From Eledone cirrhosa (Eukaryota), in assembly GCA_964016885.1 (NCBI GenBank), contig CAXHJY010000708.1:62001-126000 (forward strand): a stretch of 64,000 nucleotides of DNA. The letters are read 5' to 3'. The notes below the pieces were generated by a model, which saw only the letters and a program-made list of their open reading frames with translations, searched no databases and was not told the origin of the DNA. Within the stretch, counting starts at the first letter, position 1. Every line of letters starts with the position of its first letter. A program made the translations under genes and the position numbers. Below, one piece after another: positions 14,694 to 46,061 of this stretch.

Positions 14694-14929
14694 TTTGATA
14701 CCTTATTGATAATACTTTGAGGAACACAAGTCGTAGAGAGCTTTATGTCTGTTTACGACTAACTGTTCTTCACTTGAATAATTCACACACACACACACAC
14801 ATATATATATATAGGAACTCGACGGCTGAGTTCTGGCCGTTTCGACAGCTAGATCCGAACGTGTATATATATATATACACAAAATATGAGGAAATAATAG
14901 AAAAAAAATATACCTATTTTTTCTTCAAA

Positions 14930-15022
14930 GTCTCGACTGCAGTTTCGCTGATCCGTGTGCACCGATTTCTGCACTTTAAAAGTGTATCATCGCTGTGAGG
15001 TTGATACGGCTTATCAAGAGAC
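14930..15022 (-). ncRNA. Hammerhead ribozyme, U3-A8 core, extended stem II
   Basis: gtctc-TTGATAA-gc..(~60 nt)..gc-GAAA-ctgcag-TC-gagac. Confidence 0.78.
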
Positions 15023-15492
15023 CCCTCAGAAAAAAGAACTGTTTCTTGACGCGTTTATAGCAAGTTAGAAAGTCTTATAGGCGGAGGGAGAGTGTTTAAA
15101 ACGTGTTACGGTAGCAAAAAAAGGATTGTTTCTTTCGTAGCAAGTGAGAATTTCTCGAGAGGCGAGGAGAGAGATAAACACATGATACAGTGGTCACAGA
15201 AGAGTAGTAAGGTGGACAGTGAGCGAATAACGCATTTGCTAGAAAAAGCAGTTAATACACTCGTGGTTAACTCGACCACAGGGGGGTTTGGGACAATATA
15301 ATAATGAAATACACACACATATTCATATGTATATGTGTGTGTGTGTGGTGTCCGCCTTAGCAAGTTTTGCTCGATGACCAAAAGAGACAAGATAACTAAA
15401 ATAATTAAATTAACTCCATAATCAGAGCTATTTATCAAATTACAAAATATGAGGAAATAATAGACAAAAAATATACCTATTTTTTCTTCAAA

Positions 15493-15583
15493 GTCCCGAC
15501 TGCAGTTTCGCCGATCCATGTGCACCGATCTGTACTTTAAAAGTACATCATCGCTGTGAGGTTGATACGGCTTATCAAGAGAC
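15493..15583 (-). ncRNA. Hammerhead ribozyme, U3-A8 core, extended stem II (second copy)
   Basis: gtctc-TTGATAA-gccg..cggc-GAAA-ctgcag-TC-gggac. Confidence 0.8.
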
Positions 15584-15866
15584 TCCTCAGAAAAAAGGAC
15601 TGTTTCTTGACCCGTTTATAGCAAGTGAAAAAGTATCATAGGCGGAGGGAGAGATTAACACTTGATATAGTGGTAAAAAGAAAGGATTGTTTAGGTATAT
15701 ATATATATATATATATAGTCTTCAAATTTATTATTATTACTATATATATATATATATATATGAACTCGACGGCTGAGGTCCGGCCGTTTCGACAGCTAGA
15801 TCCGAACGCATATATATACATATATATAAATGGAAAAAATGAAATTTCATTTCGCACTCTTAGTAC

Positions 15867-16400
15867 AAATGTAAGTATGTATACGTACATACATAAATGT
15901 ATACAGACGTACAGAAGTATGTATATACATACATGCACACATATACTGTATATATGTACGTATGGGTTTACCGAACATTTATTATAATGTTCGGTTTGTT
16001 TGTAAACAAACAGCTCGAATTAAGCCGTACAGTGTTCGGCAAACATCGTTGCCCTTTTGTTCAACACTGACAAAGGAACGATGAACTAGTTTTTAGCTTA
16101 TTAGCTGTCATCAGCACCGTATACCTTCCTGTCAGTCGATTGAACGTTTGAAAGTATATACTTTCCTTATGTATATATTAACAGCTGAGCAGCCTAATTT
16201 GCATATTTGTCAGTGTTGAACAAAAGGGCAACGATGGTTGTCGAACACTGTACGGCTTAATTCGGGCTGTTTGTTTACAAACAAACCGAACATTATAATA
16301 AATGTTCGGTAAACCCATACGTACATATATATATATGTGTGTGCATGTATGTATACACATACTACTATACGTCTGTATGTATGTACGTATACATACTTAC

Positions 16401-16404
<4 letters not shown>
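15867..16404. repeat. Inverted repeat with ~200-bp arms between (TA)n tracts
   Basis: 15867-16074 is the reverse complement of 16206-16404. Confidence 0.9.
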
Positions 16405-16478
<74 letters not shown>

Positions 16479-23485: not shown

Positions 23486-23574
<89 letters not shown>

Positions 23575-23612
23575 ATATTAATAAATGGAGACTATATTTA
23601 TAAAACCATAAT

Positions 23613-23678
23613 TATTTTATTATATATATTTCAAAGGCGACCAAGGTAAATTATGGTGCGCTTTCATCAGATAAAATA
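23613..23678 (-). ncRNA. Type I hammerhead ribozyme (family B)
   Basis: tattttat-CTGATGA-stem II-GAAA-tatata-TA-ataaaata on the minus strand. Confidence 0.85.
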
Positions 23679-23803
23679 CAGATTTGTTTTATAAATAAAT
23701 ATTGACATCCCCGAAGAAAGACAACCCCAACGGTTGAAATTCGCTGGACTATCCAGGTTGTCTTTTTCCGGGTATGTCAATATTTATTTATAAAACAAAT
23801 CTG

Positions 23804-23869
23804 TATTTTATCTGATGAAAGCGCACCATAATTTACCTTAGTCGCCCTTGAAATATATATAATAAAATA
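23804..23869 (+). ncRNA. Type I hammerhead ribozyme (family B)
   Basis: tattttat-CTGATGA(23812-23818)-stem II-GAAA(23850-23853)-tatata-TA-ataaaata; 8-bp stem I. Confidence 0.87.
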
Positions 23870-24027
23870 ATTATGGTTTTATAAATATAGTTTCCATTTA
23901 TTAATATATTGTATATTTACTCCACTAACTTGTTGAGTGCTTTATATCAGTTATAAAAATTTAAAAAAATGTTTAAAGTTTGTTGAATCCCAACAAGTTA
24001 AATATAACCTCTGCATATATATATATA

Positions 24028-33454: not shown

Positions 33455-33642
33455 TGGTGGATTGGCAGTATCGGTAGAGGGTCTGACGCCATGCTTTACA
33501 GCAAAGAGTTACGGCCCTTTATGGTCTGAGTTCAAATCCCGCCGAGGTTAACTTTGCCTTTCATCCTTAAGGGGTCGATAAAATAAAGTACCAGTAATAC
33601 ACTGGTTAATTGCTGGCCTTGTGCCAAAAGTAGAAACAATTA
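33455..33642 (+). mobile_element. SINE-1 copy
   Basis: As above. Confidence 0.92.
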
Positions 33643-33676
33643 TATTTAGAAGAAAAAGGATTACAATATTAATAAT

Positions 33677-33863
33677 AATTGTTTCTACTTTAGGCACAAG
33701 GCCAGCAATTAACCAGTGCATTACTGGTACTTTATTTTATCGACCCTGTAAGGATGAAAGGGAAAGTCAACCTCGGCGGGATTTGAACTCAGATCGTAAA
33801 GGGACATAACTATGCTGGAAAGCATGGCGTCCGACCCTCTACCGATACTGCCAATCCACCGCC
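33677..33863 (-). mobile_element. SINE-1 copy, inverted relative to 33455-33642
   Basis: Reverse complement of consensus. Confidence 0.92.
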
Positions 33864-40970: not shown

Positions 40971-41064
40971 TATATATATATATATATATATACGTAGGTC
41001 CCGGGTTGAGTCGGGGATAACCACAGTAAGTAAGGTATTCAATACATGGCAGAGTAAAAATTTG

Positions 41065-41182
41065 TTTATTTTATAGAAGGAGCTTCTACAGGACTAGTAC
41101 TGTTTCATTCAGATGAAATCTTTGAAGATTTCATCTGAATGAAACAGTACTAGTCCTGTAGAAGCTCCTTCTATAAAATAAA
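41065..41182. repeat. Perfect ~58-bp-arm palindrome made of HHR 3' portions
   Basis: Right arm TGAAGA-t ttc atct gaa t-GAAA-cagtactag-TC-ctgtag; centre ~41123. Confidence 0.9.
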
Positions 41183-41189
41183 AAATAAA

Positions 41190-44759: not shown

Positions 44760-44830
<71 letters not shown>
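44597..44830. repeat. Compound repeat agtagaattaacatt-(AT)n x3 with an inverted copy at the left edge
   Basis: aatgttaattctact at 44597-44611, then three agtagaattaacatt units separated by (TA)n. Confidence 0.9.
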
Positions 44831-44834
<4 letters not shown>

Positions 44835-45277
44835 ATACTTGGGGAGGGTCATATTTGTGTAATATTACCAGAATTAATAACAGAACGCACTCACTGTTTG
44901 GTTGGTTTTCGCTTTTCGCTTCTGTGTCTTTTATATCGGTAATCTAATTTATTCGGTCCTCAATGTTGCCATTGACTGACCAGCGGTCAAAAATAATACA
45001 GATACAATATAGACACAAACACATATATATAGTTTATCAAAGTTCTTTCGTTGCACATCTGCAACATCATCAGTGGTGCTATTGTTTCCTCCCGTTATAT
45101 TGTATTTTCTACGCCATCTTTATTTAGTCTGTTTATATATTTATTTGTTTGTTTATTTTATTTTGTCTTCTTTGCGCATGCGTTTGCGTGTGTGTATAGT
45201 GTTTTGTTTGATGTGTATAACAATATTTGTTTCGACACACGATTTTATTTTGTCTTCTTTGCGCATGCGTTTGCGTG

Positions 45278-45350
<73 letters not shown>

Positions 45351-45353
<3 letters not shown>

Positions 45354-46023
45354 ATTAACTCAAGGATGGATGTGGATATATTCATGTATATGTGTGTGTC
45401 CGTATGTATCTGTGTGTTTCTCAATATATTGTTTATATCTCCCTCTGGTCGAGTAATCTTTGAAGTGTAGTGACTGCTGGAAAGCTGCCATTACTCATAC
45501 TTCTCGCCTCCTTCGCATACTTCTACGGCTTCGATATAAATACCCCCTCCGCCTCCGTGGTATTTTTTTCGGGGTTATAAGGGGCTTAGCTCTCTTTCTT
45601 GACCGTTGTATCACGTGACTGACTCCCTCTCCGCCTTTTGGAATTCTATCTCACATCATATAGACGTGTTCTTGAGGCTAGTAAAACGAGGTATCCTCTT
45701 GATAAGTCGGCAGACTTCGCAAGAGCTCTATATCTCTATGATGTATTGTTTTTGATTATGCCACGAAACTACGTAGTCGAGGAATCTAGAGGCAGTTTGG
45801 GTATGATACATCTTATTACTAATTATATCTAAATGTTTCTTCTCTCTTCATAATGTACTTTTAGCTCTGATACTGGTCAGTCTAATCCATTCGGATTGGT
45901 TTGTCCCAGTTATTCATAGAGCAACATCGGTTAAGGTTGGCACCATTAACTCAAGGATGGATGTGGATATATTCATGTATATGTGTGTGTCCGCAAGTAT
46001 CTGTGTGTTTCTCAATATATTGT
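45351..46023 (+). mobile_element. Non-coding HHR element with ~80-bp terminal direct repeats (retrozyme-like)
   Basis: 45351-45432 repeated at 45942-46023 (period 591); (TA)n both sides; central HHR; no credible ORF. Confidence 0.8.
45694..45783 (+). ncRNA. Hammerhead ribozyme, U3-A8 core, extended stem II
   Basis: tcctc-TTGATAA-gtcggca..tgccac-GAAA-ctacgtag-TC-gagga. Confidence 0.82.
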
Positions 46024-46061
46024 ATATATATATATATATATAGTGTGTGTGGCCTAGTGGT

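What the first reader, a model, noticed from the sequence alone, without database searches (positions are those of the whole stretch)
45351..46023. Miniature non-coding PLE mimic: 591-bp period, pseudo-LTRs and a variant hammerhead
Seen: same layout as the autonomous element (3' end repeated at the 5' side, then extending into a gagtaatct motif) but with no ORF. It has a U3-A8 HHR with ~60-nt stem II and ctacgtag palindrome, and clean (TA)n flanks. Inference: a non-autonomous retrozyme-like replicon parasitising PLE machinery, possibly through a ~591-nt circular RNA; the clearest example of the candidate system.
Basis: partly seen in the sequence, partly recalled or inferred. Interest (0 to 1): 0.75.

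Follow-up and report, generated by a model that had tools for sequence, protein, structure and literature searches.

The report
Penelope-footprinted hammerhead retrozyme copy
This is one of thousands of copies of a 591-base non-coding repeat carrying a predicted self-cutting RNA, and its insertions end the same way as those of Penelope-type jumping genes, which likely copy it into AT repeats, possibly from a small RNA circle; it is a known kind of element.

Summary
In detail: an 82-nt repeat at a 591-nt period, no ORF, a U3-A8 hammerhead (predicted cut after 45778) and (TA)n flanks. The layout needs correcting. The left 'pseudo-LTR' is only where 5' truncation fell, and this single-hammerhead copy would not release a monomer.

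The family is large: 7,444 exact copies of a hammerhead 24-mer in G000, in head-to-tail arrays (20 of 36 spacings are 591). Arms end 3' at one of two fixed sites 166 nt apart. All 38 fully typed two-armed insertions use one of each, as does the window's coding Penelope-like element (PLE; 6 of 6). Units of one insertion share private mutations, and 5' ends pile up just past the predicted cut (28 against 6).

Verdict: a new member of the metazoan non-LTR retrozymes (non-autonomous PLEs), with a direct PLE footprint. Cleavage, expression and circles are not shown, and the partner PLE was not found. The scan found this family and sister families before, on other DNA of this genome.

The parts
45351..46023 (+). 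One-armed insertion of 1.14 units (591 + 82 nt), ending at 3' site A. Unit coordinates used below: u1 = 45351.
45279..45350 (.). Left (TA)n flank (target microsatellite); the 5' junction is a truncation point, not a fixed end
46024..46042 (.). Right (AT)n flank, joined at site A
45351..45432 (+). 5' copy of the 82-nt repeat, ending at the internal copy of site A (u82)
45942..46023 (+). 3' copy of the repeat; 46023 is fixed 3' end A (71 of 146 arms end at A)
45599..45618 (+). TTGACC..CACGTGA motif, about 85-95 nt before the hammerhead core and kept in divergent sister families; promoter element inferred, untested
45687..45719 (+). Predicted pseudoknot: CGAGGT (45687-45692) pairing with ACTTCG (45714-45719) in the stem II region; most relatives have TGAGG/CCTCA
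45694..45783 (+). Type I hammerhead with U3-A8 core, long stem II region and palindromic stem III; predicted cut after C45778 (u428)
45849..45857 (+). Second fixed 3' end, site B (u507), read through in this copy (57 of 146 arms end at B)
45858..46023 (+). 166-nt 'tail' between sites B and A, with a predicted hairpin at 45864-45922; inferred binding region for the reverse transcriptase
14879..15692 (-). Sister family: two U3-A8 hammerheads 561 nt apart (15578 and 15017), same tail motifs, ending at a B-like site
12..3677 (-). Coding PLE (frameshifted RT plus GIY-YIG-like ORF, 389-nt pLTRs). Its family shows the same two-end pairing with an 86-nt tail. A comparison, not shown to be the partner.

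Best explanation
This is a 5'-truncated copy of an abundant 591-nt non-coding hammerhead repeat (a non-LTR retrozyme) whose insertions end at two fixed sites in (TA)n and were likely made by a Penelope-type reverse transcriptase-endonuclease, probably copying round a self-cut, re-ligated monomer circle. Shown: copy number, unit length, two fixed 3' ends, strict one-of-each pairing in two-armed insertions, TA targets, shared private alleles, conserved hammerhead pairing. Inferred: (1) arrays with two or more hammerheads are transcribed from an internal promoter; (2) the hammerhead cuts, likely as a dimer through its palindromic stem III; (3) monomers are ligated to circles (about 0.55); (4) a PLE protein dimer binds the tail, nicks both strands of (TA)n and starts one cDNA at A and one at B on the same RNA; (5) the two cDNAs join head to head, or one joins the TA repeat, as here.
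For: 7,444 exact motif copies, control 0. 20 of 36 spacings are 591, range 585-607. Of 146 arms in 87 loci, 71 end at A, 57 at B and 18 are untyped. 38 of 38 two-armed insertions typed at both ends are A+B (37 without a local duplicate; binomial p 4e-12). TA repeat follows 65 of 65 A ends and 54 of 55 B ends. The window's coding PLE family has 64 of 69 3' ends at two sites 86 nt apart, and 6 of 6 typed two-armed copies use one of each. A Poseidon PLE protein nicks and extends both strands, starts at two internal sites that define the tail, and is predicted to be a dimer (PMC11167929). 29 locus-private alleles are shared by all units of their locus, 14 across both arms; L100 has 4 in 7-8 of its 8 copies. 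L217 has a private stem II deletion in both tandem hammerheads. TA-joined 5' ends: 6 in the 16 nt before the cut, 28 in the 15 nt after it (7 at u429-430), 25 in the next 29 nt (p 5e-5). Stem I and III show changes on both sides in 26 relatives. The circular monomer folds at z -2.9 against 40 shuffles.
Against: No cleavage, transcript or circle was observed. No coding PLE sharing this hammerhead or tail was found, whereas non-autonomous Chlamys elements generally resemble their partner at the 3' end. In the Poseidon system hammerhead cleavage was not needed and uncut RNA was the main template. Private alleles confined to one unit (140) outnumber shared ones (29), and within-locus pairs were closer than the nearest other locus in only 63 of 138 comparisons (29 equal, 46 further). 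The lengths of the two arms do not correlate (rho -0.19). The excess of 5' ends could be the enzyme stalling at stem I. The local minimum-energy fold is not the hammerhead. Core invariance is partly imposed by my search patterns.
Confidence: 0.72

Rival explanations
1. Same element and same PLE carrier, but no circle: the template is an uncut linear multimer from a parent array, or a cut linear monomer on which the enzyme jumps from 5' end to 3' end.
For: Uncut RNA is the main substrate of the Poseidon protein in vitro. The excess of 5' ends just after the cut shows that some templates were probably linear and cut. A young homogeneous parent array would also pass shared alleles to all units.
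Against: A new allele or deletion can spread to every unit only through a one-unit step. Arms cross the cut site without a break in the alignment: 52 of 57 B arms and 58 of 71 A arms, in loci selected for holding a hammerhead, so an upper bound. Imprecise jumps should leave scars there; junction letters were not inspected one by one.
Confidence: 0.2
2. Single copies insert as PLE-derived fragments and the arrays then grow locally by unequal crossing-over or gene conversion, like satellites (a scenario raised in bioRxiv 10.64898/2026.07.22.740005).
For: Homogeneous units (L100: 0 differences over 487 sites between most full units) are also what conversion gives. Local duplications of whole insertions exist (L073, L016/L030).
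Against: Arrays are short, dispersed, end exactly at A or B, carry partial 5' units, and share alleles between inverted arms.
Confidence: 0.05
3. The copies are 3' fragments (pLTRs) of a long coding PLE, or this locus is a chance duplication.
For: A coding parent could be rare; the DNA search scored only 40 of 2,704 candidates.
Against: In the 87 loci mapped, arms continue 5' as more units, an inverted arm or flank. There is no blastn match to 11 coding-PLE stretches, and the best six-frame protein match has E 0.05.
Confidence: 0.03

Closest known systems
Metazoan non-LTR retrozymes (Cervera and de la Pena 2020, PMC7229834; parts 2-4 of 6 read)
   Same: Non-coding, GC below 50% (41%), head-to-tail repeats with one type I hammerhead per unit, thousands of copies, coexisting with PLEs. 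The paper proposes PLEs as carriers and circles as templates.
   Different: Unit is 591 nt against about 170-400. U3-A8 core, 59-nt stem II region and a predicted pseudoknot instead of canonical loop contacts. No target duplication can be read within (TA)n. Circles were shown there, not here.
Vertebrate retrozymes as non-autonomous PLE derivatives (Li, Clavereau, Pollet 2026, bioRxiv 10.64898/2026.07.22.740005; parts 1-3 of 5 read; supplements closed)
   Same: Unit size falls within their 51-972 bp range; link to PLEs.
   Different: Their evidence is co-occurrence and pLTR homology. Here it is insertion anatomy, and no pLTR homology was found.
PLE insertion anatomy and non-autonomous Chlamys elements such as MRC1 (Craig et al. 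2021, PMC8557442; passages); Poseidon PAc mechanism (PMC11167929; parts 1-3 of 4)
   Same: 5' truncation, partial tandems, inverted 5' copy, tail at one end only, microsatellite targets, two start sites for reverse transcription, multicopy head-to-tail non-autonomous elements.
   Different: The tail is 166 nt against 30-40. Junctions blend into the TA repeat, which suggests short-homology priming, unlike PAc.
U3-A8 hammerheads of Schistosoma Cercyon PLEs (PMC4209133; parts 1-2 of 4) and natural U3-A8 cores (PMC3088659; one passage)
   Same: Same core covariation, palindromic helix III, dimer-type architecture.
   Different: Those occur mostly as single minimal motifs linked to PLEs; here the motif sits in a tandem non-coding unit with a much longer stem II region.

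Membership tests
Metazoan non-LTR retrozyme | Head-to-tail repeats with one type I hammerhead per unit | tested here: met
   for the family; this copy itself has 1.14 units and one hammerhead
Metazoan non-LTR retrozyme | No protein coding; no LTR layout | tested here: met
   longest ATG ORF 43 aa; terminal repeat length varies with truncation; PBS and PPT were not searched
Metazoan non-LTR retrozyme | Hammerhead fold conserved by covariation | tested here: met
   85% of cells paired against 79% shuffled and 33-41% slid; changes on both sides in stems I, II and III; core letters were partly fixed by the search patterns
Metazoan non-LTR retrozyme | RNA self-cleavage | tested here: inconclusive
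   only the indirect excess of 5' ends after the predicted cut; needs an assay
Metazoan non-LTR retrozyme | Expression as linear and circular monomers | not testable with these tools
   needs RNA data or a Northern blot
Non-autonomous Penelope-like element | Fixed 3' ends at two sites (tail at one end), variable 5' truncation, inverted 5' arm | tested here: met
   same pattern in the coding PLE family
Non-autonomous Penelope-like element | Microsatellite or AT-rich target | tested here: met
   119 of 120 typed 3' ends and 26 of 35 one-armed 5' ends abut TA repeats
Non-autonomous Penelope-like element | 3' similarity to an autonomous PLE of the same genome | tested here: inconclusive
   none found among the coding families sampled; for two families the 3' end lay beyond the fetched 1.5 kb, and other families were not sampled
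Autonomous PLE | RT plus GIY-YIG ORF | tested here: not met

The most novel reading that the evidence does not exclude
An old clan of 560-720-nt circular RNA replicons with its own pseudoknotted U3-A8 hammerhead, promoter and tail, with no surviving coding parent. It recruits a PLE dimer by RNA structure alone and is copied by two reverse transcriptases running round one circle, so its insertions would be the genomic record of rolling-circle twin priming.
Probability: 0.3. Interest if true: 0.7.

Novelty: new member of a known kind. Interest (0 to 1): 0.45.

Why it matters
The retrozyme papers I read propose PLEs as carriers and circles as templates but do not show it. This family gives a countable footprint: two start sites used strictly one per arm, as in a coding PLE of the same genome; shared private mutations; and 5' ends stacked at the predicted cut. 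A 591-nt non-coding template with a 166-nt tail is a simple substrate for testing how PLE tandems, inversions and tails arise. The class is known, and the scan has already noted this family.

Tried and rejected
Rfam: no hammerhead among the matches listed; miRNA hits on microsatellites are noise.

Partner search. U3-A8 pattern searches returned this family and non-coding sister families; the tail pattern (550 matches, 30 loci read) showed no ORF in register. 3' regions of coding PLE families showed other hammerheads or none within the stretch read. A tail profile against 15 PLE stretches gave only low-complexity hits. A resemblance between the tail hairpin and the coding PLE's tail was not supported by folding and is dropped.

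A pile-up exactly at the cut was not seen in the first sample (2 of 128 ends within 5 nt), which was selected for intact hammerheads; the targeted searches did show an excess.

A-to-I editing scars: A>G is 8 of 33 shared alleles against 8 of 133 unit-specific ones (p 0.004), but T>C is also raised (5 of 33), so this is weak and not claimed.

Pairing between sites B and A is predicted in this copy but not in the sister family; dropped.

No RNA holder listed. The three runs of one sample only confirm a high-copy, variable repeat. Ten metagenome pattern matches did not resemble the element on inspection. Pfam did not name the 713-aa PLE protein; its homologues are unnamed; the atlas gave no result. 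The host's identity was not examined; earlier notes call it a cephalopod.

Full report
Observation. Window 45351-46023 is one 591-nt unit plus 82 nt of the next, between TA repeats. It has no ORF over 43 aa and one type I hammerhead with U3-A8, a 59-nt stem II region and a palindromic stem III, predicted to cut after C45778. Rfam did not list it and the local minimum-energy fold is different, so the ribozyme call rests on comparison. In 26 relatives, 85% of cells pair (shuffled 79%, slid 33-41%), with changes on both sides in stems I, II and III. Position 7 varies in copies found through the tail pattern. A 5-6-bp pairing between the segment before stem I and the stem II region reaches 5 bp or more in 15 of 26 sequences, against 2 and 8 for two control segments; the window copy keeps it with changed letters. 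The core's invariance is partly imposed by my patterns.

Family. The window is G000:C735:62001-126000 of a 3.0-Gb genome. A hammerhead 24-mer occurs 7,444 times, control 0. The first 100 matches lie in 50 loci, which I fetched; about 3,700 loci is a rough extrapolation. Spacings are 585-607, with 20 of 36 at 591. The window copy belongs to an older subfamily; the main subfamily is about 86-90% identical to it and more homogeneous.

Insertion anatomy. In 87 loci (30 best hits, 50 position-ordered, 7 others, one of which repeats a locus) there are 146 arms: 71 end 3' at site A (u82), 57 at site B (u507) and 18 are untyped. 5' ends fall across the unit. Of 51 two-armed junctions, 38 could be typed at both ends and all are A+B (37 without the local duplicate in L073); 13 had an untyped end. 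TA repeats follow 119 of 120 typed 3' ends, and the last template letters often blend into the repeat. With one hammerhead this copy would not release a monomer (the two-hammerhead criterion).

PLE link. Craig et al. describe partial tandems, an inverted 5' copy and a tail at one end only (passages). Frangieh et al. show two internal start sites that define the tail, nicking and extension of both strands, and a predicted dimer. The coding element at window 3677-12 is a PLE by its RT and GIY-YIG-like motifs and pLTRs. Pfam does not name it and its homologues are unnamed; a Hydra-clade assignment is my guess, untested. Its family has 64 of 69 3' ends at two sites 86 nt apart; 6 of 7 distinct two-armed copies could be typed, and each uses one of each site. 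The non-coding family thus carries the PLE footprint. The partner was not found; each protein search scored only 150 candidates and not all families were sampled.

Template. In 54 loci with overlapping copies, 29 private alleles are shared by all copies of their locus (14 across both arms; 18 loci) and 140 are not, 25 of these from one poorly aligned piece. L100's full units are identical or one letter apart across both arms, while the nearest other locus differs by 2%. L217 has the same deletion in both hammerheads. This requires a one-unit step somewhere in the ancestry; a circle explains it, but so would precise jumping on a linear monomer. Across all 138 within-locus pairs the signal is mixed (63 closer than the nearest other locus, 29 equal, 46 further, with edge artefacts). 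TA-joined 5' ends, counted by hand over C1 and the first 380 Mb of C2, number 6 in u413-428, 28 in u429-443 (one near-duplicate dropped; 7 at u429-430) and 25 in u444-472 (one inverted junction dropped). That is 0.4, 1.9 and 0.9 per base. It suggests that some templates were cut at the predicted site, though stalling at stem I and the preference for junctions at A are alternatives. An editing signal is weak.

Comparison and novelty. It works like, and meets the testable features of, a metazoan non-LTR retrozyme (PMC7229834); a 2026 preprint already calls these non-autonomous PLE sequences (its supplements were closed and may list similar families). U3-A8 is known in PLE hammerheads and elsewhere. 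Five paper searches showed no title or abstract describing strict two-site pairing in a retrozyme; only six papers were opened, so this is a limited claim. The scan's notes report this family and sister families, with similar readings, on other pieces of this genome (none by sequence). Two of them prompted the tests; they are not independent support.

Verdict. A real element and a new member of a known kind. Non-autonomous, PLE-mobilised identity about 0.9; circle step about 0.55; interest 0.45.

Noticed in passing
L016:2083-2128 (same junction in L030): A 9-nt B arm and the A arm are joined through 35 nt of a coding PLE's 3' UTR in antisense. It could be an RNA template switch, which would name a partner, or a fill-in from a copy of that PLE about 160 bp away. 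One event.
   Followed up: partly
window 44830-45285: 3' UTR fragments of that same PLE family lie directly left of the element's TA flank, probably nested use of one microsatellite.
   Followed up: partly
L100, junction of the arms (about 4870-4965): An 11-nt piece of the unit is repeated about seven times between the arms, like repeated slippage.
   Followed up: no
L183-L212, L224-L250; window 14879-15692: Older sister families with the same U3-A8 hammerhead; stem III palindromes differ but stay palindromic; periods of 561, 567 and 719 nt were seen.
   Followed up: partly
window 5320, 18865, 20364, 23670, 23812, 24378, 46747: Further hammerhead-like motifs with a C3-G8 core; the one at 5320 matches the 3' end of another coding PLE family.
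   Followed up: partly
G000: At least three more young coding PLE families, with 150 scored copies each at 94% identity or more and some open frames over 750 aa.
   Followed up: partly
window 54867-60179: A non-LTR retrotransposon remnant with endonuclease (PF03372) and RT (PF00078) pieces and an upstream ORF.
   Followed up: no
window 15864-16407, 33456-33860, 23569-23913, 41062-41185: Long inverted repeats, and a ~190-nt repeat with many window copies such as 13500-13685.
   Followed up: no
L019: A unit without an A or B end, flanked on both sides by the same ~60-nt non-TA sequence: an atypical insertion.
   Followed up: no
L152:4815-6719: An 80-nt tandem array of about 24 units just beyond the window.
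   Followed up: no
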